From a virus (lineage: Duplodnaviria; Caudoviricetes), in the IMG/VR virus record IMGVR_UViG_3300009431_000002, positions 137,922-201,921 of that record: a stretch of 64,000 nucleotides of DNA; one strand, given 5' to 3'. The notes beneath the pieces were generated by a model. The model saw nothing but the letters and a program-made list of their open reading frames with translations. It made no database searches and had not been told where the DNA came from. How positions within the stretch are numbered: the first letter of the stretch is position 1; every line of letters begins with the position of its first letter. Positions 36,052 through 64,000 of the stretch are shown here, piece by piece. Position numbers and translations under genes: made by a program.

Positions 36052-36064
36052 GACGTCTCCCTTC

Positions 36065-47420: not shown

Positions 47421-47428
47421 CCGGGCTC

Positions 47429-49723: not shown

Positions 49724-49752
49724 TTGTACTGGCCCTCCTGGCGTTATACGGT
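49724..49752 (+). promoter_or_regulatory. sigma70-type leaderless promoter TTGTAC-N17-TACGGT
   Basis: -10 ends exactly 6 nt before GTG 49759; no SD upstream of that gene. Confidence 0.5.
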
Positions 49753-49758
49753 TCCTAC

Positions 49759-50151
49759 GTGGCCCGGCCCCGCCAACTGTTGGACCCGGAGGTTACGGCG
49801 CAGCTGCTGGAGGGGCACACGTGCACTCTACCAGAACTGTACCGGCCTGTTGACGAGCAGTTCGAGAAGCTACGCTGCCCGAAGTGCGGAAGCAAGGTCG
49901 AGCGCGTGGTCGACACGAAGCGGCCGTTCACCGACCGCGACATCATCCCCAACTACCTCGCCCGCTGCCCGGTCTGCGACCTCGAGATGACACCCGAGGG
50001 GATCATCACCAAGACCGGCGGCATCCCCAAGGAGGGGCCGAACCCGTCCGAGGGGATGAGCACGGTAGACCCGCGCAACACCTTCATCGCCGAGCAGGCC
50101 ATCGAGCAGGTCATCGGATCACGCCGCGGCCGACCTGGCGGGTCAGGATGA
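49759..50151 (+). CDS. Zn-ribbon protein antisense to the tail operon, 130 aa
   Basis: CPKC...CPVC; GC3-rich; fills the gap between two minus-strand genes. Confidence 0.7.
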   Translation: MARPRQLLDPEVTAQLLEGHTCTLPELYRPVDEQFEKLRCPKCGSKVERVVDTKRPFTDRDIIPNYLARCPVCDLEMTPEGIITKTGGIPKEGPNPSEGMSTVDPRNTFIAEQAIEQVIGSRRGRPGGSG

Positions 50152-53100
50152 TGTGCTCGCCGGCGGGGATGTCCTCGTCGGCGCCCGTCGCCAGCGCTCC
50201 AGGGATGAAGAAGGACGTCCGGTTGCTGCCGTTGAAGTAGACCTCGGTGTCACCACCCAGCTTGTCCTCCGACCTGTCGGCCACCATCCTCCGGTCGAGG
50301 TCGTGCGTGACCGCCGCAAGCGTCGATGGGTGGTTCCACCCCGTCGCTCCCGACGTCCGCATCTTGTCCTCGACGGCCGCGACTCCCAGCTCGTCCAAGG
50401 GGTCGCGGTCGTTGATGTAGTCGCGCACCTCCGGGTACAGCCCAGCCTCCGTTGCCCCGCCCTGGTACTGGCCGTCGAAGCACACGTAGGACGGCAGGAA
50501 GTGGCGGACCAACGGGTCCGAGTCCGGCGCGCGCTCCTGCCTGGAGGTCACGAACCTCTGGAGCTGGGCCACCAGCGGCGCCCACGTGTACCGCAACTGC
50601 ATGCGCTGGCTGTCCACGGGAATCCGCGAGGCGTGGTCGTCGTCAGCGCCCACCGGCAGCACGGCGGGGCTCACATGGATGGCCACCTCCTCGTGCGTGC
50701 TGAAGGTCAGGCGCGTGTCGTCGGTCTCGTACCTGTATCCCTCGCTGAAGTAGGTCCCGAAGACCATCTCCATCCGCGTCATCGCGGTCAGGTTGTAGAT
50801 GTCGTCGGACCCCGAACTGCGCACCAGGAAGTCGGCGTAGTACATGCAGCCTGCCCGCTGCGTAGCCATCACCGTCGACGACACGCGCTGGACGCCGGGT
50901 CGGATCACCCGGAAGGGCTGGCCGTACCCGTCCACCGGCACGTGCGTCGGGTCGAGGGGGTCCTGCACCGAGAAGGTGGCCACGGCGTTGTCGAGGGTCG
51001 TGTCGACCGCGCTGACCACCCAGACATCAGCGGTGCCGCTGTACAGGCGGAACGGACGGAGGCCCCACAGCTCTGTGCCCCCGACATCCGTCTCCACCGG
51101 AGCCTCCGCCGGTGCGCCGGAGAGCACCCACAGGACATCCGACTCCCGGGAGTCCGCGGGGAAGTACCCGGCCGGAATCTCCAGGTCCACCCAAGCCCCC
51201 GAGGTCGTGTCGACGTCCAGCACCTTGTACGAGCCATTCGTGGCCGGGTAGTGCGAGCCGTAGATGGTGAGGTACCGGCCCAGGTCGTCGGTGTCGAAGG
51301 TGCCAGCGGTCACGGTGAACCGGGTGTTCTCGGCGACGTCACCGTCCCACGAACCGTCGTTGCCGTCCTTCAGCGGCGTGGACGAGTTGTCGGTCATCAC
51401 ATGATCGACCACGAGCTCCAAGGCGCTGATGGACTCCACGACATAGCCGCCGGCGTCCAGGCCCTCCTCGAGGAAGAGCAGGTCGCCTGCCTGGACGCCG
51501 AGCGTCACGAAGTCGATGCCTGCGGACTCCAGCACCTCGATGCGCGCCGTGTCCCTGCGGATACGCGCGGCCGGGATGCGGTCCTTGCTCGGTGCTTGGT
51601 CGTACCCGTAGCCGATGGCCGGGTCGAACGTGAGGTACCCGTAGCCGCCGCTCGTCGCAGCCGAGGACTGGTCCACGTCGACGACCACGGCGCCGCCGAC
51701 CTCGACGGAGGCGACGACGACGGTGTCGCCGACCGCCGTGACGGTGAGCACCGGCACCCCGGCGTCCTCCGTGAACGAGGGCACGTTCATGGCCGCGGCT
51801 GCGGCCGCGGCGTCGGCAACTGCAACGCTCTCCGGGAAGGTGAAGCTCTGCGTGTGGGTGCCGCTCGAATCCTCAACATCGACGCTGATGGTGGCGAAGG
51901 CGGGCCCCGTACCCAGCGGTGTGGTCCACGCAGGATGTCCATTGAGGGCGGCGCCCGTGGTGACGTCCGCCTCGATGGTGACGGTGGCGCCCCCCTCGAT
52001 GGTCGTCATCACGAGGCTGTTCCCGCTGGCGGTCAGCGACAGCACCTGGGTGCCGCCGTCGTCCTCGAAGCCAGCCGCCAGCATCTCGGCGAGCAGTTGC
52101 GCCATGTCGTTGTAGGTCGCCCCCGGGACGACCAAGATGACGGGGCCGTTCTGCGCCTGCCCGACGTGCGTGAACTCCTGGACGTGCGTCCCGTTGGGGT
52201 CGATCACGGTCGCTCGGATGGTCTCGGCCGAGTGCCCCTGGCTGGTCCCCACGGCGCCGGCCGCCGTGTTCCACGGGATGGGGCCGCCGCCCGTTGACAA
52301 CGCGGTGGACCCGGGCACGACGAAGATGGAGGTCTGCACGCCCGTCTCGAGCGTCCGGATGGCCAGGACCATCTGACCAGGCACGGAGCTGTTGAGGGTC
52401 TCCGCCTGCACCAGCCCGGCCGTGAACGCGGCGTCGGCGTTCAGCTCGTCCCGGATGTCTGTCAGGGAGATGTTCCCCGCAGCGAACGAGTGCTGGAGGG
52501 TCGCGGTCATACCGATGGATGGCGCGTTGACCGTGATCTGCAGGATCTCGCCGCCGGCGAAGACGAAGGGCCCCACAGGCGGGACAGCCTCGGACCACAC
52601 CCTGGCGGACTCCTCCGCCTCAGCCACGTAGGGGAAGGTGATGGCGTCGGAGGTGATGACCGCCTCGGTCTCCGGCGGCGTGAACGCGGACACGTCGTCC
52701 GAGATCACGACAGCGTTGCCCCCCGTTGCCCGCTCCGAGGGCAAGCAGAACAGCTCCTCGTGGATCTCCACGAAGTCCCGGCCCTCGAGGAACATCAGCT
52801 CGATGGGCGCGGGGACGGACATGTCCGTGATTCGCAACTGGGAGTTGGTCCCCTGCGACACGACCTCGAGGTCGCGCGGGAGGTCCTGCTCCAGCGTGTC
52901 CTCCGAGCTCTCCTTGCTCGGGAAGACCTGATGCGGGTCGGCGTCCGGCGACGGCGTGTACAGGGCCTCCTCTGCCCCGACCACGGCCGACCACAGCGTG
53001 GGCTGGCCAGCGTGGATGGTGATGGGGACGTCGTCCACCTCCTCGGCCAGCAGGACCGTGCACTCCCCGCCGGAGTCCACCTCGATGGTGGTCGGCTCGG

Positions 53101-56100
53101 AGAAGTAGACCCGGACGATGTTGTCGCACGTCGGGCTGCCGACGGAGTAGTCGACGAACACCATGTCGGCCAGGGCCAGCAGGATGTTCTCCAGCCCCAG
53201 GTAGTCGAGGATGTCCTCGGGGATGTCGAAGCCCAGCCGGCCCAAGAACTCGATGAGCCACGCGAAGAAGGCCACGATCCAGTCGAACGGGTCCTGGATG
53301 TTGCCGTAGTCGTCGTAGCAGTAGCCGTCGAACGCCGGCGGCTCCGGGAGGTCCGGCACGTCGGGCAGGCCCTCCTGGAACATGTTCCAGAAGGCGCCGC
53401 AGGGGCCCACGGAGAACTCGCCGCGGATGGTCACGGCACAGATGTTGAACTGACCCCAGAACTCGTTGAGGTACGCGTAGTAGCTCGTGGCGGTCATCGT
53501 ACCGCCCGGCAGCAGCGTGTCCTGCACGTCGGTGTCGTCGATCTCAACGATGGGGATCTGCAGGGTGAAGGTGTGGAGGTCGCGGATGTTGTACCCACCC
53601 GCGTTCGGACCGCTGGCGATGGTCAGGACGTCGCCGGGCTCCGCCTGGCACAGCGCCGGCTCCTCGGCCCCGTCCAGCAGCTGCCCCAGCTCAGCGATCT
53701 GGGCGGGCCAGTTGTCGGTGTCGAACGCCGCCAGAATGGAGGCCAGCGTCGGGATAGACACCTCGGGGATGGCCATGAACACATCGTTGCAGCAGTTGAA
53801 GAACTCGGCCGGCAGGCACAGCTCCACCTGCATCACGTGGTCGGCCGTCAGCTCCTGTCCAGCGGGCCACGGCGCGAAGATGCCGTCCTCGTCGATCACG
53901 ACGTCCGGCACGTCCTTGCTGGGGAAGAAGGCCGCGTAGGTCTCTTCCAGCCACGTGACCACCGAGTTCCAGTAGGTCGCCACCTGCGGAGTCAGGGAGG
54001 TGTTGAGTCGGATGCCGTCCGCGTCGAACGACAGGCACACCGTGTACCCGTCGCAGGGGATGCACCCGTCGCCGTAGCACCCGGCGCCGACCACGGCGTC
54101 CAGCAGATCGAGCACGCCCTCCGTGGTTGCCGGGAATGAGCCCGACCCAACGATCTCACCGGCGATGAATTCATCGAAGCCGAACTGCGCCAGCCGCGAG
54201 CACACCACGTCTTCCAGTGGCTCGAAGGTCGGCGTGAGGTCGGGCATGACGAAGCCCATCGTCCCGCTCGCCGTCTCCGCTGCGCCCGTGAACCCCTCGA
54301 GGTTGCGGCTGTCGATGGGCAACGCCGGAGGCACCGTGACCTCCGTGGGCTGGTCGGCCGCGTCGAGGAGGCGCACTCCCAGCGGCTCCAACCGCACCAG
54401 CGGCCGGTCGATGCCCGTGAAGGGCGTGAACACCTCGTAGTCCAGGTTGGCGTTGCTGGCGGACAGCGGCCGGTCCACCTGCGGACCGGACCCGCCGTTC
54501 GTGGTGTCGAAGGACGTGATCTCGTAGTCGCCGGCGTCCGGCCCCTCGAGGATGCGGAGGATGTCGCCTGTCGCCGCCTGGTAGTTGAGCAGGTTGGTGC
54601 CCGTGAACCGGACAACGTCCTGCCCCACGAACGTCTGGAGGTCTCCGCCCGGCGCCGCGGCGCCGAAGGGGACCTTGAGGTGGCGGGGCTCGACGAGGTT
54701 GACGACGACCTCGTCAACGATCCGGAACGCCACACCCTCGTCCGTCGTCGTCATGTCCGTGTCGAGCACCAGCTCGTCGCGGCTGACGCGGAGGATGCCG
54801 TAGGAGCCGGCGTCCGCGCCCTCCGTGATGACCAGGAAGTGCTGACCAGCGATGACCCCGAGCTCCACCCAGTCGATGGTGGGGTCCGTGGACATCACGA
54901 TGTTGGGGTAGGCTCCGAGCCCATCGAAGGACAGCGACCTATCCGCGTACAGGGGCTGCTCGTCCGCGGCCGTGACCGAGGTCGACGCCTCCGTGTCCGA
55001 GGCGGGCCGGACCCAGATGTCGTGCTTGCCGCCGATGTGGATCTCGCCGTCGTCGATGATGATGGTGCCGCGGTCGGTCTCCGGTGCGAGGATGCCGCCC
55101 GGGATGTCGGCAATCTCGATCTTCCCCTGCCCGCGGACCGTCGTGAACACCGCCGGCAGCAGGCCGGGGAAGCCACCGAGAATCGTGGACGTCGGCGTCG
55201 GCTCTCCGTTCATCTGGAACAGGTAGATGGTGGGGAAGGAGGGCACGGCGTCGCGGCTCGAGAACACGACGCTCGTGATCGTGAACTCCTCGTGCTGCTG
55301 GTGGTCCGGCATGCCGTAGAGCATGCCCCAGTAGTTGAGGTCCACGGTGTCCCCGACCTCGACCTCTGTCAGTCCGTTCAGCCCACGGTCCTCGTACTGC
55401 GAGAGCAGGAGGCAGAAGGTGCCGAACACGAACGCCGTGCCGCTGGCGCGCACGCTGCCGTGGCCACCGCCGGTGATGACGTCCCGCTCCATCTCGGGGT
55501 CGCCCATGCCGACGACCTCGAGGTTGCGGATGCCGCTGAACGTCTCGGTGAGCTTGCCGAAGATGCCACGCACGCCGGTCAGCGACCGCTCGGACAGCCC
55601 GCGCTTGGTCTTGGTGATCAGCTGGGTGTTGTTCTCCCGGGAGACGCCGCCGCTCCCGGCGTCCAGGTTGACGACGCGGATGGCCGAAGCGATGCCCTCC
55701 ACGTTGGACAGCTCGCCGCGGTCGATCTCGTACTCGGTCCCCGGGTTCTCCGACCTCACGACGACGTCCATGTAGTAGTCGCTGCCGGACCGCTGCACCG
55801 TCATTTGCTCGGCGGTGATGGTCTGGGCACGGGTCGGGTAGAAGTTCAGGCCGCCGTTCGTGTAGAACCGGACGAGGGGGGACACGTCCTGGTAGGCGGG
55901 TGCCGCGTAGTACACGCGCGCCGTGACGGTGACGTACTCGCCCTGGTTGCGGCTGGCGAACCAGTTCGCCGCCAGGCCGTCAGCGTCGTCGTCGGTCAAC
56001 AGGTCGGGGCGCAGGAAGCTCTGGCGTTGGCGGATGGCGTCGATCTGACCGCGCAGGGGGGCGAGGACGGGGACCAGGGGCTTGGCGAACAGGTCCCGGC

Positions 56101-56320
56101 CGCCCACGTGGTCGCTCATGTCGAGCGAGGGGTACTCCTGCTTCACGCGGTCGACGATGAAGTCCAGGATGGGCATGCTGAACGCGTCGGCGCCGAGGGC
56201 GTCCACCAACGGATCGATGATGTCCACGCGCACGGACGAGCCCGCCGTGAGGTCCACGTCCGCATCCCACGAACGGAAGAGGTCCTCGATGTACTCCTGG
56301 AGCGTCTGGGGATCGCTCAT
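50111..56320 (-). CDS. Baseplate J/gp6-like giant protein, 2069 aa
   Basis: N-terminal BplJ-like region (GGVSRENNTQL), directly downstream of gp25-like gene; repeated beta modules. Confidence 0.62.
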   Translation of the reverse strand: MSDPQTLQEYIEDLFRSWDADVDLTAGSSVRVDIIDPLVDALGADAFSMPILDFIVDRVKQEYPSLDMSDHVGGRDLFAKPLVPVLAPLRGQIDAIRQRQSFLRPDLLTDDDADGLAANWFASRNQGEYVTVTARVYYAAPAYQDVSPLVRFYTNGGLNFYPTRAQTITAEQMTVQRSGSDYYMDVVVRSENPGTEYEIDRGELSNVEGIASAIRVVNLDAGSGGVSRENNTQLITKTKRGLSERSLTGVRGIFGKLTETFSGIRNLEVVGMGDPEMERDVITGGGHGSVRASGTAFVFGTFCLLLSQYEDRGLNGLTEVEVGDTVDLNYWGMLYGMPDHQQHEEFTITSVVFSSRDAVPSFPTIYLFQMNGEPTPTSTILGGFPGLLPAVFTTVRGQGKIEIADIPGGILAPETDRGTIIIDDGEIHIGGKHDIWVRPASDTEASTSVTAADEQPLYADRSLSFDGLGAYPNIVMSTDPTIDWVELGVIAGQHFLVITEGADAGSYGILRVSRDELVLDTDMTTTDEGVAFRIVDEVVVNLVEPRHLKVPFGAAAPGGDLQTFVGQDVVRFTGTNLLNYQAATGDILRILEGPDAGDYEITSFDTTNGGSGPQVDRPLSASNANLDYEVFTPFTGIDRPLVRLEPLGVRLLDAADQPTEVTVPPALPIDSRNLEGFTGAAETASGTMGFVMPDLTPTFEPLEDVVCSRLAQFGFDEFIAGEIVGSGSFPATTEGVLDLLDAVVGAGCYGDGCIPCDGYTVCLSFDADGIRLNTSLTPQVATYWNSVVTWLEETYAAFFPSKDVPDVVIDEDGIFAPWPAGQELTADHVMQVELCLPAEFFNCCNDVFMAIPEVSIPTLASILAAFDTDNWPAQIAELGQLLDGAEEPALCQAEPGDVLTIASGPNAGGYNIRDLHTFTLQIPIVEIDDTDVQDTLLPGGTMTATSYYAYLNEFWGQFNICAVTIRGEFSVGPCGAFWNMFQEGLPDVPDLPEPPAFDGYCYDDYGNIQDPFDWIVAFFAWLIEFLGRLGFDIPEDILDYLGLENILLALADMVFVDYSVGSPTCDNIVRVYFSEPTTIEVDSGGECTVLLAEEVDDVPITIHAGQPTLWSAVVGAEEALYTPSPDADPHQVFPSKESSEDTLEQDLPRDLEVVSQGTNSQLRITDMSVPAPIELMFLEGRDFVEIHEELFCLPSERATGGNAVVISDDVSAFTPPETEAVITSDAITFPYVAEAEESARVWSEAVPPVGPFVFAGGEILQITVNAPSIGMTATLQHSFAAGNISLTDIRDELNADAAFTAGLVQAETLNSSVPGQMVLAIRTLETGVQTSIFVVPGSTALSTGGGPIPWNTAAGAVGTSQGHSAETIRATVIDPNGTHVQEFTHVGQAQNGPVILVVPGATYNDMAQLLAEMLAAGFEDDGGTQVLSLTASGNSLVMTTIEGGATVTIEADVTTGAALNGHPAWTTPLGTGPAFATISVDVEDSSGTHTQSFTFPESVAVADAAAAAAAMNVPSFTEDAGVPVLTVTAVGDTVVVASVEVGGAVVVDVDQSSAATSGGYGYLTFDPAIGYGYDQAPSKDRIPAARIRRDTARIEVLESAGIDFVTLGVQAGDLLFLEEGLDAGGYVVESISALELVVDHVMTDNSSTPLKDGNDGSWDGDVAENTRFTVTAGTFDTDDLGRYLTIYGSHYPATNGSYKVLDVDTTSGAWVDLEIPAGYFPADSRESDVLWVLSGAPAEAPVETDVGGTELWGLRPFRLYSGTADVWVVSAVDTTLDNAVATFSVQDPLDPTHVPVDGYGQPFRVIRPGVQRVSSTVMATQRAGCMYYADFLVRSSGSDDIYNLTAMTRMEMVFGTYFSEGYRYETDDTRLTFSTHEEVAIHVSPAVLPVGADDDHASRIPVDSQRMQLRYTWAPLVAQLQRFVTSRQERAPDSDPLVRHFLPSYVCFDGQYQGGATEAGLYPEVRDYINDRDPLDELGVAAVEDKMRTSGATGWNHPSTLAAVTHDLDRRMVADRSEDKLGGDTEVYFNGSNRTSFFIPGALATGADEDIPAGEHIILTRQVGRGVIR

Positions 56321-56991
56321 GCCGCCTCCTTGGACTGCGCCGCCAGGTTGGCCAACGCCTCCTCTCCCGCCATGGACACCAGCCGGATCCTGCCCTCAAC
56401 CGACAGGGTCTGCGGATCGAAGTTGACCGACAGCAGCGATGCCGACAGCAGCCGCTCGGGCAACGTCAAGCCGCGCGTGGTCGCCTGCACACGCGTGATC
56501 TGCTCTTCTGCACGGGCCACCGCAGCAGCGAAGGCCCCGACGTGCAGGTTCTTGTCGTGCCGGCCCGACGAGCTCTTCTGCAGCGCCATCAGGTTCCCGC
56601 CGTGCTCCGCATCGTAGATGTCGGAGCCGGGCGTCGTCAGCAGGACCTTCACGAACGTCTGGACCAGCTTGGGCAGCCCACCGACCAGCCTCCCCGTCCT
56701 GCTGAACCGGAACACCAGCTGGCTCTTCTCCGTGGCGGTGAACGCATCGCTGAGCACCATGACCTGCTTGAGCGGGGACTCCGCCAGCCTGGGTGGGACC
56801 TGCGCCACCAGCCGCGTACGCGAGAGGACCAGGAACTCCTCGGCCTCCACGCCGTTGAGCAGTACGGTGGAGACGTTGCGGAAGTCGTTCCCGTAGATGT
56901 CGTAGACCGGAGGGTAGAAGCCCGACACGAGCCCGATCTTCCGGACGGGGACGACGTCCTGGTACTGGACGTACTGGATGTCCAGGCTCAT
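56317..56991 (-). CDS. Baseplate gp25/gpW-like protein with N-terminal IPT/TIG domain, 224 aa
   Basis: KLVQTFVKVLLTTPGSDIYDAEHGGNL gp25-like signature. Confidence 0.68.
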   Translation of the reverse strand: MSLDIQYVQYQDVVPVRKIGLVSGFYPPVYDIYGNDFRNVSTVLLNGVEAEEFLVLSRTRLVAQVPPRLAESPLKQVMVLSDAFTATEKSQLVFRFSRTGRLVGGLPKLVQTFVKVLLTTPGSDIYDAEHGGNLMALQKSSSGRHDKNLHVGAFAAAVARAEEQITRVQATTRGLTLPERLLSASLLSVNFDPQTLSVEGRIRLVSMAGEEALANLAAQSKEAA

Positions 56992-57413
56992 AGCGGCATG
57001 TCCTCCGACGAGACGGTTGCGTACACGCCGTCGTCCTTCTCGACGTCGTTCGGGTCGAAGTCCCTGGCGGCCTGGATGAGCCCCGGCACCGCGGGCTCGC
57101 CACCCGCCTCCTCCCGGCCCATCATCAGTTCCTGGAGCTCCTCCAGGCGTTGCTTCCGCCCCTTGCGCCCCGCGGCTCGCTCAAGCTCCGCTTGCGCCGA
57201 GGCGCTCGCCTCAGACTCGATCTGTGCTGTCACATCGATCTGGGTGGAGTCCAGCCCAAAAATGGCCTCGTCGATGAAGTTGGCCATGGTGAGCGACGCG
57301 ATGGTCTCGGCCGTGGCCTGGCTCGTGATGGCCGAGATGACCCGCGCGAGGCCGATCCGCAACGCGGTCTCCTGGGCCTTGGCGTCCTCTGTGGTGTAGA
57401 GGAAGGTCGTCAC
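56988..57413 (-). CDS. Hypothetical tail/baseplate protein, 141 aa
   Basis: Coupled overlaps on both sides. Confidence 0.65.
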   Translation of the reverse strand: MTTFLYTTEDAKAQETALRIGLARVISAITSQATAETIASLTMANFIDEAIFGLDSTQIDVTAQIESEASASAQAELERAAGRKGRKQRLEELQELMMGREEAGGEPAVPGLIQAARDFDPNDVEKDDGVYATVSSEDMPL

Positions 57414-60001
57414 GGGCTCTCCCTGTGCGTCGAGATGGCCGCCACGTCTCCGGTGACAGACGACCTCCTCCCAGCGTCCTCGGCCTGCGCATCACTGGAC
57501 TTGGGCGGTGCCATATCCTGCGCTACCGCAGTCAGCGCCGCTTCGAGGTTACCAGATTGAGAAGCCGTGGCGGACGACAAGTCCAGGAAGTCCTGAACGC
57601 GTCCGTTCACAAGGAACTCTGCGGCACGGTCGAAGCCGTGCTCCTCCAACGAGGCGAGGAGGCTGTCCACGGCGCGCTGGGAGTCCACATCCACGGTCGG
57701 CGAGAACAGAGCCAGGGAGTCCTCGTAGGTGCGGCCGCTGGTCGGCCTGGCCATCTCCTCGGACACCAACCCCGCGTCGATGTCGGTAGCCTGCGGCGGG
57801 GAGGCCGTGAGCAGGGAGAGCAGGTCCACCAGCGGGACGAGTGCCTTCCGCATGGCGCCCGCGCTGATGGCCCCACGTCCGCTGGCGGCCGCCACCCGCT
57901 CGCGCAGTGCGCGCAGCACGCGGATGTTGGGCACGCGGGACTGTGCTTGGTCCGACAGCAGCCGCTGCAACGACGTGCCGGTGTCGTAGAACGACTTGTA
58001 GCTGGCGTCAGTGATGACGAATGGGGTGTCCCCCATGTCCAGCCGCACGGGCGGGGTCACCTGCAGGTCGGTGCCCGTCGGCGCCACCACGACCTCCAGA
58101 TCGACCTGGGCCTCGCCATGCAGCTGGAGTCGGTCGCCGGCCGCGATCCCGAAGGTCGTCAGGTCCAGCGGTGTGTCGTCCCCAACTCGGCGCACCACCT
58201 CCACCAGCGCCGTCGTAGCATGGGTATCGCCAGCGACCAGGCCCAACTCAGCCAGCCCCACACTGTCCAAGATCGTGAGGACCGTGCCCTCAACCTCGTC
58301 CAGCACAGTCAGTACGAGGTGACCGTCGGCGTCCAGCGATGGCGTGACCCCACCACCCTTGACGGCCTCCACAACGGTGCTGGGGTCTGTCTCCAACGTC
58401 GCCGTCTCGGTCAGGCCGAGGAGCGTGACCGCCTGGTTGGGCTCCGCCAACGCCCCGACGCCTGTGGGCGCAGTCCAGGAGATCTGGATGGTCGTGCTGA
58501 CCTGGTCGATGGTGATCGAAACACCCTGCCCCTCGGCCACGGAGCTGACGACCAGCTTGTCGCCGTCCGAGGAGACGGCCGCGACGGTCTCAGCGCCGTC
58601 CTGCTCCAGCGGCTGCATGGCCGCGACGAGCGCGGCCATGTTGCTGGCCCAGACGCCGGCGCCCATCGTCGCCGTGAGGATGCGGAGCTGCCCCGGTACG
58701 TCCTGCAGGATGACCTGGATGCCGACGCCGTCGCCGACCGGGAAGGTGATGTCGTCGGAGGTCACCGTGGCCGGCGCGTCCCCATCGAAGGTCGACGGGA
58801 GCGTGAACGCCGACGGGCAGGTCAGCAGCAGGCGGTCGCCGAACGCCTCGGCCGTCACCGGCGTCCCCGCGGCGTTGATCGCGTCGACGATGTCGGCGAC
58901 ATCCGCCGCGCCAGCCGGAAGCTGGATGGGGTAGGTCACACCGCCCGTCTCGATGTACAAGTAGACGCCGGCCGGAATCGTCAACCCGATCACGTCGACG
59001 GTGCCCAGCACGGCGTACAGCCCCGCACCAGGGATGTCGGCCGAGAATGAAGCGTCGCCAACCTCGTACAGGAGCTGCGTCCCGGCAGGCAGAAGTCGAG
59101 CCACGGGCGACGACCCCGTCACCACGAGGTCGCTACCGTCCTCCAGGGGGAGCAGGACGTAGTCCGTGCCCTCGGGGATGGCCGTCAGCGGATCCTGCGA
59201 CAGGTCCTTGGACCGGATCTTCGGGTCGGCCGGGCCGCGCGCCTGCTGAACGGCGCTCAGTGCCGCCTTGCCGGCCAGCAGATTCAACGCCACGGAGGAC
59301 GCAGTCCGCGCCGCCTCCTCATCCGACGCCGTGTCGTAGTAGTCGACTGCGGCGTCCACCCCCGACTTCGTCCGGTCCACGATGCCCGAGGACACCCGCC
59401 GGCGCAGGTCCTCGGCGGTCACCTCTGTCACGGTCCTGCGCGCCCACAGAATCCGCTGCTGGAGCTGCAGGAAGCGCCGGATGAAGTCGTCGAAGTGGGT
59501 CACGGCATCCGAGAGGGCCTCGGCCCCCACGCGCGCGGCGCCCGCCCCGACAGCGGGCTGCACGTTGGGCTGCAGCCCAGACGCCACGAAGTCGTCCAGC
59601 GCCTTCCCATAGGAGCCCAGGAGGGTGGATGTCGCGCGGCTGCTGCCCGAGGTCTGCATCACATCCGCGGCCGTGCCGAGCGCCGACGACGCCGCGGCCA
59701 ACGACACAGTGTCGTTTGGCGCCACGGACGGGCGGGTGGAGTCCAGCAGGGCGAGGATGGTCTCCTCGAGGTCGGTGATGGTCTCCTTCAGCAGGGCGCG
59801 GACGCCGTTGTTGGCGTAGCCGGCGAGGACGTAGAAGGTCGGCGGCCGCAGGAGCAGCAGGGTGGCCGCGTCCTCCTGCAGCTTCGTGAACGCCTCGGTC
59901 TTGGCGTCGACACCAGCCGTCTGGTGCCCCGCCACCGACTGACGAGAGAGGACCTTGCCCGACGCGGTCTGCAGCCGGTTGCTGTCATACCCTCGCGCCA
60001 C
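57410..60001 (-). CDS. Tail-associated structural protein, 863 aa
   Basis: Helical termini, beta-rich middle sharing the ITSD.ITFP segment with the 2069-aa protein. Confidence 0.6.
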   Translation of the reverse strand: MARGYDSNRLQTASGKVLSRQSVAGHQTAGVDAKTEAFTKLQEDAATLLLLRPPTFYVLAGYANNGVRALLKETITDLEETILALLDSTRPSVAPNDTVSLAAASSALGTAADVMQTSGSSRATSTLLGSYGKALDDFVASGLQPNVQPAVGAGAARVGAEALSDAVTHFDDFIRRFLQLQQRILWARRTVTEVTAEDLRRRVSSGIVDRTKSGVDAAVDYYDTASDEEAARTASSVALNLLAGKAALSAVQQARGPADPKIRSKDLSQDPLTAIPEGTDYVLLPLEDGSDLVVTGSSPVARLLPAGTQLLYEVGDASFSADIPGAGLYAVLGTVDVIGLTIPAGVYLYIETGGVTYPIQLPAGAADVADIVDAINAAGTPVTAEAFGDRLLLTCPSAFTLPSTFDGDAPATVTSDDITFPVGDGVGIQVILQDVPGQLRILTATMGAGVWASNMAALVAAMQPLEQDGAETVAAVSSDGDKLVVSSVAEGQGVSITIDQVSTTIQISWTAPTGVGALAEPNQAVTLLGLTETATLETDPSTVVEAVKGGGVTPSLDADGHLVLTVLDEVEGTVLTILDSVGLAELGLVAGDTHATTALVEVVRRVGDDTPLDLTTFGIAAGDRLQLHGEAQVDLEVVVAPTGTDLQVTPPVRLDMGDTPFVITDASYKSFYDTGTSLQRLLSDQAQSRVPNIRVLRALRERVAAASGRGAISAGAMRKALVPLVDLLSLLTASPPQATDIDAGLVSEEMARPTSGRTYEDSLALFSPTVDVDSQRAVDSLLASLEEHGFDRAAEFLVNGRVQDFLDLSSATASQSGNLEAALTAVAQDMAPPKSSDAQAEDAGRRSSVTGDVAAISTHRESP
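59702..59714. repeat. Dispersed palindrome copy 4 (AACGACAC-A-GTGTCGTT)
   Basis: Exact core inside a CDS; arms extend to 8 bp and further with one bulge. Confidence 0.85.
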
Positions 60002-60362
60002 TGGACTTCCTCCGCCCCAAGAGCTCGATGCGCCGCATGTGGCCTGGCGACATCGTCTTAGCCTGCCGTCTCCACTTCTCTGGGTCCAGGTCGTAGGCCA
60101 TGCAGACGCTCATGTACGAGTTGAAGCGGTCCGTGTTGTTGGAGAACAGCCAGCGCTTGACCTCCGCGTGCAACCTCCGCTTCCGGAGGCTCCGTGCGTG
60201 CCTCGTCATCACGTAGTCGTGGACGGCCTTTCGGATCGTCAGGATCCACATGCGTCGCTCGCGGGAGTTCTGCACCTGAATCCAGTCGAGCAGCTGGAGG
60301 TACTCGTCCTCGTCGGTCGGGTCTCGGACCTCGAACCCCTCGTAGGTGGCGGCGTGGATCAT
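59985..60362 (-). CDS. Basic hypothetical protein, 125 aa
   Basis: Start revised to ATG 60362 (ATGA overlap with upstream stop). Confidence 0.65.
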   Translation of the reverse strand: MIHAATYEGFEVRDPTDEDEYLQLLDWIQVQNSRERRMWILTIRKAVHDYVMTRHARSLRKRRLHAEVKRWLFSNNTDRFNSYMSVCMAYDLDPEKWRRQAKTMSPGHMRRIELLGRRKSSGARV

Positions 60363-61252
60363 GCGACGTTGACGACCAGCGGAGTCACGGTGAACGTGAC
60401 CTCCGGCAGTCGCGCAGAGAAAGCTCCTTCGTCCACAGTTGCGGTGATCGAGGCGCTGCCGGTTCCGGTTGCGGTGATGACGAGCGTGCCGCCGGACCAT
60501 CCAATGGTCGCAACGTCCTCGTCGCTGGACTCGAAGGTGAGGAACTCCTGTGGCGTGCGGTCGGTGTCCTCGTCCAGGGTGATCCCACTGGACAGGAGCA
60601 GCTGCGGGTTGATGTCCTCGTGGTCGCCTACGGCCAGCGCCAGCGGGCCGGCGGGGTCGAAGGTGAGGGCGGTGGCCTGCGGGAAGAGCAGGTCGGCGAC
60701 GTCGACGGACGCGGCGTCGGGCACCTCCACGGTGCACAGCGCGTCCTCGTAGCCTGCGAGGTTGATGTCGAACTCCGCCTCACGCGGGAGGTCGAACTGG
60801 AAGTAGCCGTTGGCGTCCGAGATCTGCCGGAACGGCTTGGCGAAGTAGCCCCTGGTGGGCTGGTAGAGGGTCGCCGGCAGCCACCGGGAGTTGACCTCGA
60901 GGAGGACTCCTGGCTGCGGCTGGCCGGAGGCGTCGACGAAGTACCCGGACACCGTGCACATGTTGGGGTACACGCTCTCGGGCTGCGGCGTGACGTACGC
61001 TTCGACGTCGAACGCATTGGGGTTCGGGTCGACGACGCGCAACGTCTGGGGCGACGTGATGGTGGTCTGCGGCGTCAGTGGGTAGAACCGGATGTAGTAG
61101 AGGCCCTCGGCGACCGTGAAGTCCACCTCGCCGGCGGCGTCGGTGAGCATCGAGTACAGCAGCTCGGTGTTGTCCTCGTCGTAGATCCGGACAGGTAGCC
61201 CCTCGATGGCCGCGGCGTTCTGGTCGGTGACGGTGACGGTGACATCGGCCAT
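60359..61252 (-). CDS. Ig-like domain protein (carboxypeptidase-regulatory-like repeats plus Big_2), 297 aa
   Basis: TDAAGEVDF / SDANGYFQF repeats; FESSDEDVATI..GTLVITATGTGSASITATV Big_2 signature. Confidence 0.7.
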   Translation of the reverse strand: MADVTVTVTDQNAAAIEGLPVRIYDEDNTELLYSMLTDAAGEVDFTVAEGLYYIRFYPLTPQTTITSPQTLRVVDPNPNAFDVEAYVTPQPESVYPNMCTVSGYFVDASGQPQPGVLLEVNSRWLPATLYQPTRGYFAKPFRQISDANGYFQFDLPREAEFDINLAGYEDALCTVEVPDAASVDVADLLFPQATALTFDPAGPLALAVGDHEDINPQLLLSSGITLDEDTDRTPQEFLTFESSDEDVATIGWSGGTLVITATGTGSASITATVDEGAFSARLPEVTFTVTPLVVNVA

Positions 61253-61668
61253 TACGGTGTGCTCCTCGGAGCCGGGATCACTGAAGCCCTCTGCATCTGG
61301 TAGACGCTGGGGGCGTCGGCGAGCAGCAGGAACAGGTCGGCCTCCGCCTGGTCCGGCACGGTGAACCGGCCGGTGTACCGTGTGCCGTGGATGCTGACGT
61401 CCACCTCCATGCCGCGCGCGAGGTAGATCTCGGCCTCGCCGTGCTCGTCGGTCTGCATCTCGACCTGCGCACCCGCGGTGCCCATGCGCTGGACGACCGG
61501 GAGGTTGAACGTCGGGGCGAACGCGATGACGAGGTTCTCGATGGCGTCGCCCTCAACCGTGCCGATCTGACAGAAGACGCGGCAACGCGACGCCTGCGGC
61601 AACGGCAGGTGCGGCTTCGACACCACCACGGGCGCCAATGGGAGCAGCATCGCTGGGTAGGTGGCCAT
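61252..61668 (-). CDS. Single Ig-like domain protein, paralogous to the next gene, 138 aa
   Basis: CRVFCQI...QTDEHGEAEIYL matches CTVSGYF...ISDANGYFQFDL. Confidence 0.65.
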   Translation of the reverse strand: MATYPAMLLPLAPVVVSKPHLPLPQASRCRVFCQIGTVEGDAIENLVIAFAPTFNLPVVQRMGTAGAQVEMQTDEHGEAEIYLARGMEVDVSIHGTRYTGRFTVPDQAEADLFLLLADAPSVYQMQRASVIPAPRSTP

Positions 61669-61674
61669 GGCGCC

Positions 61675-61703
61675 ACTCTACCGCAGGATGTCGGAGTAGT
61701 GAA
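61675..61703 (-). promoter_or_regulatory. sigma70-type leaderless promoter TTCACT-N17-TAGAGT
   Basis: -10 ends exactly 6 nt before ATG 61668; no SD. Confidence 0.5.
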
Positions 61704-61707
61704 GGAA

Positions 61708-62730
61708 CTACGCGGTCTTGAGGGCGAGGCCGTCGGAGTCGTCGGCGAAGTGGACGTAGGTGTCCGTGCCGTCCTCGAAGTCGTCCTCGTTGGCCAGGCC
61801 GGCCGGAGCCCAGAACAACAGCGGCAGCGTGCCAGGGTGGTAGTCGCCTGTGGCGGTCATCAGCACGATGGGCGCCAGCGGCACATTGCCGGCGATCAGC
61901 GCCTCGGGGATGTTGTCCATCCACTCCAACTCGGTGTCGGTGTACTCGGTGGCGCTGTGCAGCGAGTAGGGTGTGGCCGACATGAGCACACCGCCCGAGT
62001 CGCCCCACAACACCATCGGCTGTACGTCGCTGCCGACGATGGCGCCGGAGTCGTAGCTGTAGTCCAACGGGTCCGCGGGATCGAGGAAGATGGTACGCGC
62101 GGGGCCGTCGACGCCCACGATGAGCTTCAGCTCGCCGACGCCGGCGACCGGGGTGTCCGACTGGTTCATCAACCAGAGGTACTGGCCCGCCTCGAACTTG
62201 GTGAAGTCCGTGCCGGCGGCGAGATAGATCATGTCGTCGCCGGCCTCGTTGTAGCCAGACGACGGGGCGCCGACGATGTAGGCGCGTCCAGACCGCTGCT
62301 CCGGCTCGGAGCGGTCCACCTTGCCGCCGTAGAACTTGTTGTAGACCCCGCCGCCGACGTCGGCAACGATGGCCACCTGCTCGGCCGTGGCGGTGATCCA
62401 CACGTCGCAAGGGGTCTCGAGCTGGATGCAGGTGGTCCCGGTGTCGTCCCCGAGCTCGTCGTAGCCCACGCTCGCGGAGTCGTCCCACCACGAGTAGGCC
62501 CGGAAGTGGACCTGCTTGGTCGTCAGGTCGTGGGTGGCGCGCAGGAACAGAGCCTCGTAGCCGTCGTCGCCGTTGCTGAAGTACACCCGGTCCTGCTCGT
62601 CTGCGTCGCCGTCGACCTCCTCCCACAGCGTCCACCCCGCGGCCAGCAGCGTGGCGTGGAGCCCGTTGGCGGCCTCGATGAAGTTGTTGACCGTGGCGAA
62701 GGTCTGGTCGGCGACGGATACGAGCGGCAT
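61708..62730 (-). CDS. Virion structural (tail) protein, 340 aa
   Basis: Acidic beta-rich; GLHATLLAAGWTLW N-terminal pattern seen in phage tail proteins. Confidence 0.55.
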   Translation of the reverse strand: MPLVSVADQTFATVNNFIEAANGLHATLLAAGWTLWEEVDGDADEQDRVYFSNGDDGYEALFLRATHDLTTKQVHFRAYSWWDDSASVGYDELGDDTGTTCIQLETPCDVWITATAEQVAIVADVGGGVYNKFYGGKVDRSEPEQRSGRAYIVGAPSSGYNEAGDDMIYLAAGTDFTKFEAGQYLWLMNQSDTPVAGVGELKLIVGVDGPARTIFLDPADPLDYSYDSGAIVGSDVQPMVLWGDSGGVLMSATPYSLHSATEYTDTELEWMDNIPEALIAGNVPLAPIVLMTATGDYHPGTLPLLFWAPAGLANEDDFEDGTDTYVHFADDSDGLALKTA

Positions 62731-62733
62731 GGT

Positions 62734-63054
62734 CTACTCCTCGGTGGGCGGCTCCTCGGGCTCCGGTGCCGGCGGGTTCTGGCCCGTGCCGACCTGCTGG
62801 CGGAGCATCAGGGTGCCCGTCCGCGGGTCGTATTGGTACTGCGAGATGTCGTGACCCAGCTTGTGGCTGAGCCGGCCCATGGTGATGGCCTGGGCCCGCA
62901 TCTCCTCCTGCAGCGCCCGGTTGGCGTCGTCGACGGCGCGCGACGAAAGCTGCATCCGAAGCTGGCTGTTCTCCAGCTCCAAGGCGTCGGACCGCTCCAG
63001 CTTGATGGTCGCCGGCGGGGTCTCAGGGTTGTTCGTGGGGGTCGCGTCGGACAT
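62734..63054 (-). CDS. Small coiled-coil protein, 106 aa
   Basis: SD GAGGAG; heptad region. Confidence 0.65.
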   Translation of the reverse strand: MSDATPTNNPETPPATIKLERSDALELENSQLRMQLSSRAVDDANRALQEEMRAQAITMGRLSHKLGHDISQYQYDPRTGTLMLRQQVGTGQNPPAPEPEEPPTEE

Positions 63055-63063: not shown

Positions 63064-63294
63064 TCATCTACCGAGTAGCAGGTTGACCTCCTGGATCAGG
63101 AAGGGTTCGGCGCTGCTGATAGTAGCAAGGCTGAGGTCCGCTGATCCACTGATTCCCTCCCGCACCTCCTTGAGGTAGGCCACGTCGTCATCGATCCGTG
63201 CGATCTCCTTGTCGTAGTAGTCCGTCCACGCCTGCTCCAGCGCGTCCAGTGCTTCGTCTCGGGTCATCGGCTCTGTCACCAGCCCGGGTCCCAC
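63064..63294 (-). CDS. Small acidic hypothetical protein, 76 aa
   Basis: Overlaps sigma stop by 19 nt; GC3-rich. Confidence 0.6.
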   Translation of the reverse strand: MGPGLVTEPMTRDEALDALEQAWTDYYDKEIARIDDDVAYLKEVREGISGSADLSLATISSAEPFLIQEVNLLLGR

Positions 63295-64000
63295 CGCTGT
63301 GCCTTCGCCGCGATCCGCTTGCGGATGCGCGAGACCTTGGAGTCCGACCAGCCCATCTTCTTGGCGATCCGCGTCGCGGACGTCGCCTGCTTGCCACCGG
63401 TGCCGAGCAGGTGCTCGTAGACCGTCAGCTCGTCAGGGGTGAGCTCGAAACGCAGGAACTCCAGCATCTCCTGGTCCTTGCTCGGGATGATGGAGGTGGG
63501 GTCGTCCTTGAACCCGGAGGATGGGAGGTCCTTGTGGGACAGCTCCGCCTGCATGCGGCCGACCTCATCCTGGTTCCACCCCAAGCGGTCCGCCAGTTCC
63601 GACGACGTCGGCTCCCTGCCGAGCTGCTGGTCGAGCTCGAACTGGGTGGTCTTGAACTTGCCGATGTCGTAGCTGCGCGTCTCCGGGATGCGACCGACGT
63701 TCTGGTACTTGTTCACGAACCTCTGCGCCGACCGCATGTAGTGGTGGACGAAGGTGGACAGCTTCGTGCCGCGGTTGGGGTCGTACCGGCGCAGGGCGCG
63801 CAGGAACTGCTGGTTGAACTCGGCCTCGACGGCCGCCGGCGGCAGCGGCGTGCGCTGCTGGAACATGCGGACCCGCTTGCCGATCAACGACTGCATGGAG
63901 TCGAGGAGGGGCTGGAACTTCGTCGGGTCCTCGCCGGAGTTCTTCCAGTCCCAGTACATCTCCATCTCCTCACGCTGCTTCTGCGTGAGGGGCTTCTTGG
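63276..64000 (-). CDS. RNA polymerase sigma factor, group 3 (FliA/WhiG/SigF-like); frame open to window edge
   Basis: Region 2 RALRRYDPNRGTKLSTF, region 3 ELDQQLGREPTSSELADRLGW, region 4 HTH IAKKMGWSDSKVSRIRKR; upstream of ATG 63965 the frame stays open (KKPLTQKQREE). Confidence 0.88.
   Translation of the reverse strand, partial: KKPLTQKQREEMEMYWDWKNSGEDPTKFQPLLDSMQSLIGKRVRMFQQRTPLPPAAVEAEFNQQFLRALRRYDPNRGTKLSTFVHHYMRSAQRFVNKYQNVGRIPETRSYDIGKFKTTQFELDQQLGREPTSSELADRLGWNQDEVGRMQAELSHKDLPSSGFKDDPTSIIPSKDQEMLEFLRFELTPDELTVYEHLLGTGGKQATSATRIAKKMGWSDSKVSRIRKRIAAKAQRWDPGW

What the first reader, a model, noticed from the sequence alone, without database searches (positions are those of the whole stretch)
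63276..64000. Cys-free sigma factor encoded at the head of a tail-gene operon
Seen: complete regions 2, 3 and 4, no Cys in the visible 240 aa, coupled to structural genes rather than early genes; the frame runs off the window with ...xCC-AAG-AAG (possibly Ala-Lys-Lys). Established: phage sigma factors usually redirect host core RNAP. Inference: here sigma is made late and co-packaged with the fused RNAP as a two-component injected holoenzyme. Prediction: the missing N-terminus ends in a K-x-A leader.
Basis: partly seen in the sequence, partly recalled or inferred. Interest (0 to 1): 0.8.

Follow-up and report, generated by a model that had tools for sequence, protein, structure and literature searches.

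The report
Phage sigma factor with capsid leader
This is the sigma (promoter-recognition) subunit that partners a large marine phage's own one-chain RNA polymerase; its relatives make it with the short N-terminal leader that marks this lineage's head cargo, so polymerase and sigma are probably loaded into the virus particle and injected together, an arrangement that jumbo-phage reviews do not describe.

Summary
The minus-strand ORF 63276-63998 encodes a sigma-70-family protein with regions 2, 3 and 4 and no cysteine. The frame runs off the window, which is also the end of the 201,921-bp record, so the next window cannot supply the N-terminus.

Relatives supply it. A 92%-identical homologue has 27 more residues, ending F-V-K-V-S-A-R-T-K-K. 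Of 43 leader-bearing homologues, 39 carry a hydrophobic-x-K-x-A/S motif (shuffles: 6.5 +/- 2.3).

- **Cysteine:** 58 of 61 family members have none.
- **Pairing with the polymerase:** sigma and a fused beta-beta' RNA polymerase co-occur in 11 of 11 near-complete related records.
- **Leader and tag:** the sigma leader is found only in records that also carry the canonical F-x-D-E-L-x-K-I-A/G cargo tag.
- **Binding model:** the model docks sigma region 2 on the phage clamp helices (0.70, controls 0.00), a textbook-like pair.
- **Cultured relative:** in Arash, sigma was detected in particles at the same length-normalised level as the polymerase.

The gene is not at the head of an operon. It is translationally coupled inside a long virion module, and "tail" is unverified. 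Packaging, cleavage and timing remain inferred.

Other notes of this scan on the same genome already mention this sigma. A sequence look-up found no look-alike on other DNA.

The parts
63276..63998 (-). Sigma-70-family gene, 5'-truncated by the end of the record. It shows 240 codons plus the stop at 63276-63278. About 16-27 N-terminal codons (the leader) are missing.
63702..63983 (-). Residues 6-99: the N-terminal helices (region 1.2-like) and region 2. The predicted core-binding surface (residues 51-66 and 97-104) lies here.
   Evidence: Model helices H6-20, H25-46, H54-71 and H80-99. Weak Pfam Sigma70_r2 match at 64-90. Interface residues.
63537..63683 (-). Residues 106-154: region 3 (3.0/3.1).
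   Evidence: Pfam Sigma70_r3 at 112-149, E 5.4e-10. Helices H106-126, H132-139 and H143-154.
63480..63536 (-). Residues 155-173: a low-confidence linker in the position of region 3.2.
   Evidence: pLDDT below 50 at residues 159-167.
63291..63479 (-). Residues 174-236: region 4 with its helix-turn-helix.
   Evidence: HTH-type Pfam matches at 185-230, below their cut-offs. Profile alignment to RpoS region 4. Helices H174-185, H188-198, H208-215 and H219-236.
63064..63294 (-). Next gene downstream (76 aa from GTG 63294, or 67 aa from ATG 63267). It overlaps or abuts the sigma stop. It is conserved in the relative L004 (65% identity).
34248..63054 (-). The rest of the co-directional virion module downstream of sigma. 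It holds genes of 106, 340, 138, 297, about 123, 863, 141, 224, 2069, 764, 1589, 220 and 1976 aa, and more. The order is conserved in L004. The 2069-aa and 1589-aa proteins match Arash structural proteins gp13 and gp14.
   Evidence: Phrog_687 'structural protein' for the 340-aa protein and Ig-like domains in the 297-aa protein.
4744..10890 (-). Fused beta-beta' RNA polymerase (2048 aa, no Cys, no N-terminal leader), the proposed partner of sigma. Its clamp helices lie at about residues 1164-1207.

Best explanation
The ORF encodes the promoter-specificity subunit (a compact sigma-70-family protein with regions 2, 3 and 4) of the phage's own single-chain beta-beta' RNA polymerase. Three further steps are inferred, not shown. 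First, it is made together with virion proteins as a precursor whose 12-25-residue N-terminal leader ends in hydrophobic-x-K-x-A/S, a degenerate form of the F-x-D-E-L-x-K-I-A/G tag on this lineage's head-cargo proteins. Second, the leader takes sigma, possibly with the untagged polymerase bound to it, into the prohead and is probably trimmed there. Third, the holoenzyme is ejected with the DNA and starts transcription at the phage-specific promoters (GGYAYAAG type) that precede the plus-strand non-structural genes.
For: Shown here:
1. Sigma-70 family with all three regions.
2. Reciprocal co-occurrence with the polymerase. Of 11 IMG/VR records found through sigma, 9 encode RNAP beta in open frames of about 1,500-2,400 aa (most about 2,000), including 3 of 3 that are at least 90% complete. 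The two without it are 24% and 29% fragments. Of 17 large records found through the RNAP, 15 encode this sigma, including 8 of 8 that are at least 90% complete.
3. Complex model of sigma with RNAP residues 1000-1460: score 0.70, best of 3 controls 0.00. That mark was reached by 58 of 80 solved complexes and 2 of 110 mismatched pairs. The runs agree in at least 47% of contacts and the partner's pLDDT is at least 68. The interface is the canonical one: clamp helices (about 1164-1207) against sigma residues 51-66 and 97-104.
4. The clamp-helix positions matching E. coli beta' R275, E295 and A302 read T, K and L in the HMMER alignment. The role of those three residues in sigma-70 binding is from my own recall. 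Sigma region 2.2 reads AEFNQQFL where the RpoS chain aligned has N-L-G-L-I, and bacterial sigmas have the longer E-G-N-x-G-L motif by my recall. This fits a private partnership.
5. Leader. The 92%-identical homologue has 27 extra N-terminal residues. Of 43 homologues with a leader of at least 20 residues, 39 carry [LFIMVY]-x-K-x-[AS], against 6.5 +/- 2.3 (maximum 14) in 2,000 shuffles. All 13 further sigma genes reached from the RNAP side have a K-x-A/S/G leader and no Cys.
6. The canonical tag (as a DNA pattern) occurs in 14 of 18 records whose sigma has a leader and in 0 of 7 whose sigma lacks one, with 0 hits for the reversed-pattern control. Fisher p = 7e-4, not corrected for relatedness. 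Tagged genes lie 1-4 kb upstream of sigma in at least 8 records.
7. Family-wide loss of cysteine. In this genome, Cys-free proteins of 200 aa or more are 13 of 49 on the virion strand and 0 of 34 on the other strand.
8. In Arash particles, sigma gp10 had 100% coverage and 467 spectra (PMC10585845). Per residue that is 2.0, against 2.3 and 2.0 for RNAP gp206 and gp216 (lengths).
9. GGYAYAAG occurs 23 of 25 times on the plus strand, mostly 20-60 nt before plus-strand genes, and none is placed to serve the minus-strand virion operons: the two minus-strand copies lie inside genes.
Against: - The N-terminus of this very gene is not in the record, so its leader is inferred from relatives.
- No experiment shows that the leader targets or is cleaved. 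The prohead protease was not confirmed here: PF03420 and PHROGs gave nothing.
- A sizeable subclade, including Arash gp10, has no leader. Yet Arash sigma is the only one with particle data, so the leader is not required for particle association.
- The Arash preparation yielded 116 'virion' proteins, including ribonucleotide reductase, so carry-over from the lysate is possible, as its authors say.
- Sigma with beta' clamp helices is a solved, textbook complex, so the pass may reflect likeness. It does not exclude binding to host core.
- Cellular sigmas are also Cys-poor: 4 of the 8 hits have none.
- No RNA data bear on timing.
Confidence: 0.55

Rival explanations
1. Sigma is the cognate specificity subunit of the phage RNAP but works only inside the infected cell, for middle or late transcription. 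It is not a packaged or injected component. On this reading the N-terminal leader is a pro-sequence or regulatory peptide that holds sigma inactive or controls its stability, and has nothing to do with capsid loading.
For: - The phage has one RNAP gene, so newly made enzyme probably also works later in infection.
- The leaderless subclade shows the core function does not need a leader.
- The sigma leader is only a degenerate version of the canonical tag. Only 5 of 61 N-termini pass a strict matrix built from this genome's tags at the 99% shuffle level.
- The Arash particle data may include contaminants.
Against: - The leader occurs only where the cargo-tag system occurs.
- The gene sits beside tagged cargo genes in at least 8 genomes.
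- Cysteine loss is shared with the RNAP and other proposed cargo on the virion strand.
- In Arash particles sigma matches the RNAP subunits per residue.
- The RNAP and sigma genes lack the phage-type promoter that precedes the plus-strand genes. That is hard to reconcile with an enzyme that is absent at the start of infection.
Confidence: 0.25
2. This is a classical phage sigma that redirects the host core RNA polymerase to phage promoters, as T4 gp55 and SPO1 gp28 and gp34 do, and as assumed for jumbo phages that lack an RNAP. Its link with the phage RNAP is coincidental.
For: - This is the general rule stated in reviews (PMC7824862, PMC13282480).
- The protein keeps an ordinary sigma-70 fold, and nothing here tests host core.
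Against: - Sigma and phage RNAP co-occur in 11 of 11 near-complete records searched from both sides, and in Arash.
- Its region 2.2 and the phage clamp helices have both diverged from the bacterial consensus.
- The docking model passes with controls at 0.00.
- The reviews describe phages with sigma but no RNAP, or RNAP but no sigma. This lineage has both.
Confidence: 0.1
3. The 'leader' is an annotation artefact: the real start is the internal Met (63965), and upstream codons in relatives are read-through of non-coding sequence.
For: An ATG at 63965 (and another at 63959) preceded by GAGGAG gives a 229-aa (or 227-aa) product, close to the 234 aa of leaderless Arash gp10.
Against: - Of the 11 visible codons upstream of Met-12, 10 end in G or C, as coding frames do in this genome.
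- The leader motif is conserved at protein level in homologues of 35-64% identity that begin with their own ATG.
- Most homologues have Leu, not Met, at the position of Met-12 and Met-14.
- In L003 a GTG start 7 nt after the upstream stop, preceded by AGGTGA, opens the 267-aa frame.
Confidence: 0.03

Closest known systems
Salmonella phage Arash gp10 ('RNA polymerase sigma factor RpoS', 234 aa) and the matching ORFs of Vibrio phages D69, D181 and D148
   Same: They are homologous (31.6% identity, E 4e-24, and 32.4%). The gene has the same position inside a virion-gene array. The genomes also encode a bacterial-type RNAP. gp10 was detected in particles together with the RNAP subunits (PMC10585845).
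   Different: Arash gp10 has no N-terminal leader. Its RNAP is split (gp206 of 1525 aa and gp216 of 606 aa) rather than one 2048-aa chain. The paper reports the detection but does not discuss a packaged holoenzyme.
Pro-sigma-E and pro-sigma-K of Bacillus subtilis sporulation (N-terminal pro-sequences removed by SpoIIGA and SpoIVFB; from my own knowledge)
   Same: A sigma-70-family protein is made with a short N-terminal extension that is expected to be removed by a dedicated protease.
   Different: Here the extension shares its motif with phage head-cargo tags, and the presumed protease is the prohead protease. The proposed purpose is loading into a capsid, not compartment-specific activation. 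Cleavage is untested.
Capsid-targeting sequence of phage T4 internal proteins (IPI-III, Alt), removed by prohead protease gp21 (from my own knowledge)
   Same: A short N-terminal peptide shared by unrelated proteins and ending at a protease site, on proteins that are injected with the DNA.
   Different: The motif is different (hydrophobic-x-K-x-A/S, against cleavage after Glu in T4). No transcription-initiation factor is known among T4 cargo. Function is untested here.
Virion RNA polymerases of phiKZ-like phages and of N4
   Same: An RNA polymerase is carried in the particle and injected to transcribe early genes independently of the host.
   Different: By reviews PMC7598289-type work and PMC13282480, phiKZ and AR9 enzymes have no homologue of bacterial sigma. 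The sigma-like gp68 and the gp226 subunit belong to the non-virion enzymes. N4 uses a single-subunit enzyme. Here a recognisable sigma-70-family protein accompanies a bacterial-type enzyme.
Compact alternative sigmas with regions 2-3-4 (RpoS, SigB, SigF and FliA type)
   Same: The domain set and fold are the same. The best sequence and structure matches are RpoS, SigA and RpoD chains.
   Different: - Identity is only about 20%.
- The Trp pair of region 2.3 is not kept: the phage reads H-H-Y there (the role of that pair is from my own knowledge).
- Region 2.2 is rewritten.
- Cysteine is essentially absent from the family.
- The partner is a phage enzyme that other notes of this scan report to lack both zinc sites (not checked here).

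Membership tests
Sigma-70 family (groups 1-3 architecture) | Region 2: core-binding helices and the -10 recognition domain. | tested here: met
   The family profile aligns from region 2.2 of RpoS. Model helices lie at residues 25-99 and Foldseek matches sigma chains over the full length. Pfam Sigma70_r2 is only sub-threshold at 0.0076.
Sigma-70 family (groups 1-3 architecture) | Region 3. | tested here: met
   Pfam Sigma70_r3 scores 39.7 bits against a cut-off of 25.3, E 5.4e-10.
Sigma-70 family (groups 1-3 architecture) | Region 4 helix-turn-helix (-35 recognition, flap binding). | tested here: met
   The profile alignment runs to RpoS residue 318, in region 4.2. HTH models match residues 185-230 below their cut-offs. 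Four helices lie at 174-236 with pLDDT of 90 or more.
Sigma-70 family (groups 1-3 architecture) | Binds RNAP core through region 2 and the beta' clamp helices. | tested here: inconclusive
   The model with the phage RNAP fragment scores 0.70, best control 0.00, with the canonical interface. The pair resembles solved complexes, so this shows likeness, not binding. Host core was not tested.
Sigma-70 family (groups 1-3 architecture) | Confers promoter-specific initiation. | not testable with these tools
   There is only a candidate promoter class, GGYAYAAG, on the plus strand.
Capsid-targeted, protease-trimmed head cargo (T4 CTS type) | N-terminal leader shared with other cargo proteins of the same phage. 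| tested here: inconclusive
   The leader is missing from this record. It is present in 39 of 43 leader-bearing homologues as hydrophobic-x-K-x-A/S and in 13 of 13 further genes. It co-occurs with the canonical tag in 14 of 18 records against 0 of 7. It is a degenerate form of that tag.
Capsid-targeted, protease-trimmed head cargo (T4 CTS type) | Leader removed by the prohead protease. | not testable with these tools
   There are no proteomic data for a leader-bearing member. The protease was not confirmed here.
Capsid-targeted, protease-trimmed head cargo (T4 CTS type) | Protein present in purified particles and ejected. | not tested
   The only data are for the leaderless homologue Arash gp10 (100% coverage, 467 spectra) in a preparation with 116 detected proteins.
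Pro-sigma factors (sigma-E and sigma-K type) | The precursor is inactive until its N-terminal pro-sequence is cleaved. | not testable with these tools
   In the model of the full-length homologue P0003, the leader is a separate helix (residues 3-15, block pLDDT 62-68) followed by a break at 16-19 before the first core helix. This says nothing about activity.

The most novel reading that the evidence does not exclude
Sigma is the packaging adaptor for the polymerase. The 2048-residue RNAP has no leader of its own, so it would enter the prohead by riding on leader-tagged pro-sigma as a holoenzyme. The head protease would then remove the leader, producing a ready-to-fire, cysteine-free, sigma-containing holoenzyme that is ejected with the DNA. 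This would be the first virion-borne bacterial-type holoenzyme with a canonical sigma, and a sigma whose maturation is coupled to capsid assembly.
Probability: 0.2. Interest if true: 0.85.

Novelty: new variant of a known kind. Interest (0 to 1): 0.7.

Why it matters
Current reviews split large phages in two: those that bring their own multisubunit RNA polymerase, which has no sigma homologue, and those that encode sigma factors to redirect the host enzyme (PMC7824862, PMC13282480). This widespread lineage does both. At least 576 RNAP-encoding stretches were found in IMG/VR, and it includes the cultured phages Arash and Vibrio D69, D181 and D148. It pairs a bacterial-type, single-chain polymerase with a recognisable sigma-70-family factor.

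If the pair is packaged and injected, it is a minimal two-polypeptide, cysteine-free bacterial-type holoenzyme with its own promoter class. That would be useful as an orthogonal transcription system. It would also be a tractable model for how sigma-core specificity co-evolves, and a new example of a sigma controlled by a pro-sequence. Because a cultured relative exists, most of this can be tested directly.

Tried and rejected
1. **Joining the record's ends.** Reading the N-terminus by joining the two ends exactly gives an Arg/Pro-rich non-protein frame, and the codon-position GC pattern changes frame at the junction. The ends are neighbours, since L003 bridges them, but about 60-100 nt are missing.
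2. **Public runs.** Only two DNA holders were listed. The one identical Logan contig stops at 63991 with no loose end beyond the window. No RNA holder was listed. Nothing follows from this about the N-terminus or about expression.
3. **The search for related loci.** The single protein found nothing, and the 27-row alignment had no usable block. A 10-row alignment worked.
4. **Strict tag matrix.** A position matrix built only from this genome's eight tags was too narrow. Only 5 of 61 sigma N-termini exceeded the 99% shuffle level, and about 21 of 61 exceeded the 95% level. I replaced it with the simpler motif test.
5. **Naming the neighbours.** Pfam and PHROGs gave nothing useful for the six upstream proteins or for most downstream ones. 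'Tail' therefore stays unverified.
6. **Confirming a prohead protease.** PF03420 gave no hit, and the controls did not ring either. PHROGs gave nothing on the ORFs at 118-124 kb.
7. **The 'moraphage' paper** (PMC12619734) turned out to describe a different lineage that lacks an RNAP.
8. **A sequence look-up in this scan's notes** gave only an unrelated hit.
Full report
**What is at the coordinates.** The window is the last 64 kb of a 201,921-bp IMG/VR virus record, classed 'linear' with CheckV completeness 100%. Position 64000 is therefore the end of the record, not just of the window. On the minus strand a frame is open from 63998 to the stop at 63276-63278. It has 240 codons and no cysteine, and the reverse complement of the window end reads CC-AAG-AAG.

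The protein matches Pfam Sigma70_r3 above its cut-off (5.4e-10). Sigma70_r2 and several HTH models match below their cut-offs. It also matches PHROG 351 'RNA polymerase sigma factor' at 1.4e-15. A profile of 27 family members hits RpoS, RpoD and SigA chains of the PDB at 4e-12 to 1e-9, from region 2.2 to region 4.2. An AlphaFold2 model has mean pLDDT 87.8. It consists of twelve helices with one disordered linker at residues 159-167. Its 50 best Foldseek PDB matches are all sigma-A or sigma-S chains at probability 1.00. In detail: this is a compact sigma-70-family protein with regions 2, 3 and 4.

**The missing N-terminus.** Joining the record's ends exactly does not give a protein-like N-terminus. 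The third-position GC pattern shows that the coding frame changes at the junction.

A 4,260-bp JGI contig (L003) encodes a 92%-identical sigma, P0001, of 267 aa. L003 positions 807-4253 align to the record's last 3.4 kb, and positions 1-110 align to record positions 746-637. The two ends of the record are therefore neighbours, and roughly 60-100 nt are missing between them. That gap holds the first 16-27 codons of sigma. Public Logan contigs stop at 63991 and did not help.

The visible 11 codons before the first Met end in G or C in 10 cases. Homologues mostly have Leu where this protein has Met-12 and Met-14. The internal ATG is therefore not the start. At the truncation point P0001 reads ...F-V-K-V-S-A-R-T-K-K-P-L, and the DNA there is identical to the window's last bases. 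The partial codon is thus probably ACC (Thr).

**The leader is a family feature.** The protein search returned 61 family members with E of 1e-13 or better, 60 of them at 1e-30 or better. Among the 57 that could be anchored on the conserved 'L-W-x-x-W-K' start of the core:
- 43 have an N-terminal extension of at least 20 residues.
- 39 of those 43 contain [LFIMVY]-x-K-x-[AS], for example FDELLKLS, IDELEKHS, FFEFEKEA and FLEKLAA. Shuffled leaders give 6.5 +/- 2.3, with a maximum of 14 in 2,000 shuffles.
- 14 have only short, leaderless N-termini, of the type that begins MGRRSRKDRDLE. Arash gp10 belongs with these.

Thirteen further sigma genes were reached independently from the RNAP side. All of them have a K-x-A/S/G leader. 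In a model of the full-length homologue P0003, the leader is a separate helix (residues 3-15) of lower confidence. A break at residues 16-19, just after its K-T-A (residues 12-14), precedes the first core helix.

**Link to the cargo tag.** Other notes of this scan describe an F-x-D-E-L-x-K-I-A/G tag on unrelated head-module proteins and propose K-x-A as the head protease's site. I checked part of this myself.
- The tag is at the N-termini of several minus-strand proteins here. Two of them lie just upstream of sigma across the record junction, at record positions 921-1403 and 1400-1759.
- The tag is on at least 10 proteins of the related record G003, where two tagged genes directly precede sigma.
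- Written as a degenerate DNA pattern, the canonical tag occurs in 14 of 18 records whose sigma has a leader (50 hits across all 29 records searched). It occurs in 0 of 7 records whose sigma has none. The reversed-pattern control gives 0 hits. Fisher p = 7e-4, not corrected for relatedness.
- In at least 8 records a tagged gene lies within about 1-4 kb upstream of sigma.

The sigma leader is a degenerate version of the tag, not a canonical copy. I could not confirm the protease.

**Partner polymerase.** The window also encodes a 2048-aa fused beta-beta' RNAP at 4744-10890 (Rpb2_6 at 7e-64). It has no cysteine and no leader.

Sigma and RNAP go together in both directions:
- Of 11 records found with sigma, 9 have RNAP beta in open frames of about 1,500-2,400 aa (most about 2,000). 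This includes 3 of 3 near-complete records, and the two exceptions are 24% and 29% fragments.
- Of 17 large records found with the RNAP, 15 have this sigma, including 8 of 8 near-complete ones.
- The RNAP lineage is large, with at least 576 stretches in IMG/VR.

A complex model of sigma with RNAP residues 1000-1460 scored 0.70, with the best of 3 controls at 0.00. That mark was reached by 58 of 80 solved complexes and 2 of 110 mismatched pairs. The runs agree in at least 47% of contacts, and the partner's pLDDT is at least 68. The model places sigma residues 51-66 and 97-104 on the clamp helices at about 1164-1207. Sigma on clamp helices is a solved, textbook interface, so this shows likeness. 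It does not show that this copy binds, and it does not exclude host core.

In the HMMER alignment to E. coli beta', the positions matching R275, E295 and A302 are T, K and L, and the first clamp helix is shorter. The numbering is my own count, and the importance of these residues for sigma-70 binding is from my own knowledge. Sigma's region 2.2 is also rewritten. This fits a private pairing and agrees with another note of this scan.

**Context and timing.** Sigma is not at the head of an operon.
- In L003 the upstream gene ends 7 nt before the sigma start.
- In L004 stop and start overlap as TGATG, and no sigma-70-like promoter is found nearby.
- The downstream gene overlaps or abuts the sigma stop.
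- Gene order from the 1121-aa protein upstream to the 2069-aa protein downstream is conserved in L004. Three of these proteins match Arash structural proteins gp6, gp13 and gp14.

Most neighbours match no family, so 'virion module' is justified and 'tail' is not.

The motif GGYAYAAG occurs 23 of 25 times on the plus strand, mostly 20-60 nt before plus-strand genes. The two minus-strand copies lie inside genes, so none serves the minus-strand virion operons, which hold both the RNAP and sigma genes. If that motif is the holoenzyme's promoter, the enzyme must be present before its own genes are expressed. That is the same logic that led to the virion polymerases of N4 and phiKZ. This step is inference, and no RNA data were available.

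**Cysteine.** Zero Cys in 240 residues is unremarkable by itself. The family, however, has 3 Cys in 15,562 residues, and 58 of 61 members have none. The eight cellular sigma hits have 0.29% Cys. In this genome, Cys-free proteins of 200 aa or more number 13 of 49 on the virion strand and 0 of 34 on the other strand. They include the RNAP, the Snf2-like protein and sigma. The large external-looking proteins of 1589-2069 aa do contain Cys. A plausible reason, which is inference, is that ejected proteins cross the oxidising periplasm unfolded.

**The cultured relative.** In Salmonella phage Arash the homologue gp10 sits in the same kind of array. It was detected in purified particles with 100% coverage, 24 unique peptides and 467 spectra (PMC10585845). 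Divided by length, that is 2.0 spectra per residue. RNAP gp206 (1525 aa) gives 2.3, gp216 (606 aa) gives 2.0, the major capsid protein gives 4.3, and ribonucleotide reductase alpha gives 0.87. This is compatible with one sigma per polymerase. However, 116 proteins were detected and the authors themselves allow for carry-over. Arash gp10 also has no leader, so a leader is not needed for particle association in that branch.

**Comparison with what is known.** Reviews state that jumbo-phage RNAPs lack sigma homologues and that phage sigmas serve host core in phages without an RNAP (PMC7824862, PMC13282480). This lineage has both. The closest analogues for the leader are the T4 capsid-targeting sequence and the pro-sequences of Bacillus sigma-E and sigma-K (my own knowledge). 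Neither combines the two ideas.

**Verdict.**
- That this is the cognate sigma of the phage RNAP: about 0.85.
- That it is made as a leader-bearing precursor in this phage: about 0.8.
- That it is packaged and injected with the polymerase: about 0.55-0.6.

I rate it a new variant of a known kind. Other agents of this scan, working on the same genome, have already pointed to this sigma, to Arash and to the tag. New here are the truncation diagnosis, the leader on sigma itself and its co-occurrence with the tag system, the family-wide loss of cysteine, the reciprocal sigma-RNAP census, and the docking model.

Noticed in passing
L003:766-778 (relative of window about 64000+): In the 92%-identical relative, the sigma leader has an 11-residue insertion (EIARRDTVSRP) whose DNA is the palindrome TCGCGACACAGTGTCGCGA. 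This is the 13-bp CGACACWGTGTCG site that other notes of this scan read as a ParB/KorB-type site. This record has 15 copies, and the largest interval (19.5 kb) spans the record junction, so a 16th copy may lie in the missing 60-100 nt.
   Followed up: partly
window 64000 (record end); G019:C1:4-189; G025:C1:141900-142394: Three of 29 related records end inside the sigma gene, at different points. About 0.2 would be expected if contig ends were random. The segment upstream of sigma is also the least conserved part of the array. This suggests a variable or hard-to-assemble spot.
   Followed up: no
whole record; in the window at 10950, 17299, 28336 and 30513: GGYAYAAG occurs 23 times on the plus strand and 2 times on the minus strand. 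Nearly all copies are intergenic and 20-60 nt before plus-strand genes.
   Followed up: partly
window 59985-60356 (-): A gene of about 123 aa fills the apparent gap between the 297-aa and 863-aa genes. It is 51% identical to a 118-aa gene at the same place in L004 and matches no family.
   Followed up: partly
L018:3-920 (-), record start: The 306-aa ORF that runs off the other end of the record is Ala/Glu/Lys-rich at its C-terminus (…AKAEAAKADAAEKTSG). It has no counterpart in L004 and no match in Pfam or PHROGs. It is the gene immediately upstream of sigma.
   Followed up: partly
G020, G018 (L130, L132); P0012, P0014, P0017: One sigma subclade has a long leader of 55-70 residues that begins x-F-L-K-Y-A and continues with a basic, His/Arg-rich stretch (…VKQHTR…). 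The near-complete record G020 has no canonical tag hit, so this branch may use a variant signal.
   Followed up: no
Arash record OQ632216.1, gp206 and gp216: Both RNAP genes are annotated 'subunit beta'. By length (1525 aa and 606 aa) the split differs from the bacterial beta/beta' boundary and from the single 2048-aa chain here.
   Followed up: no
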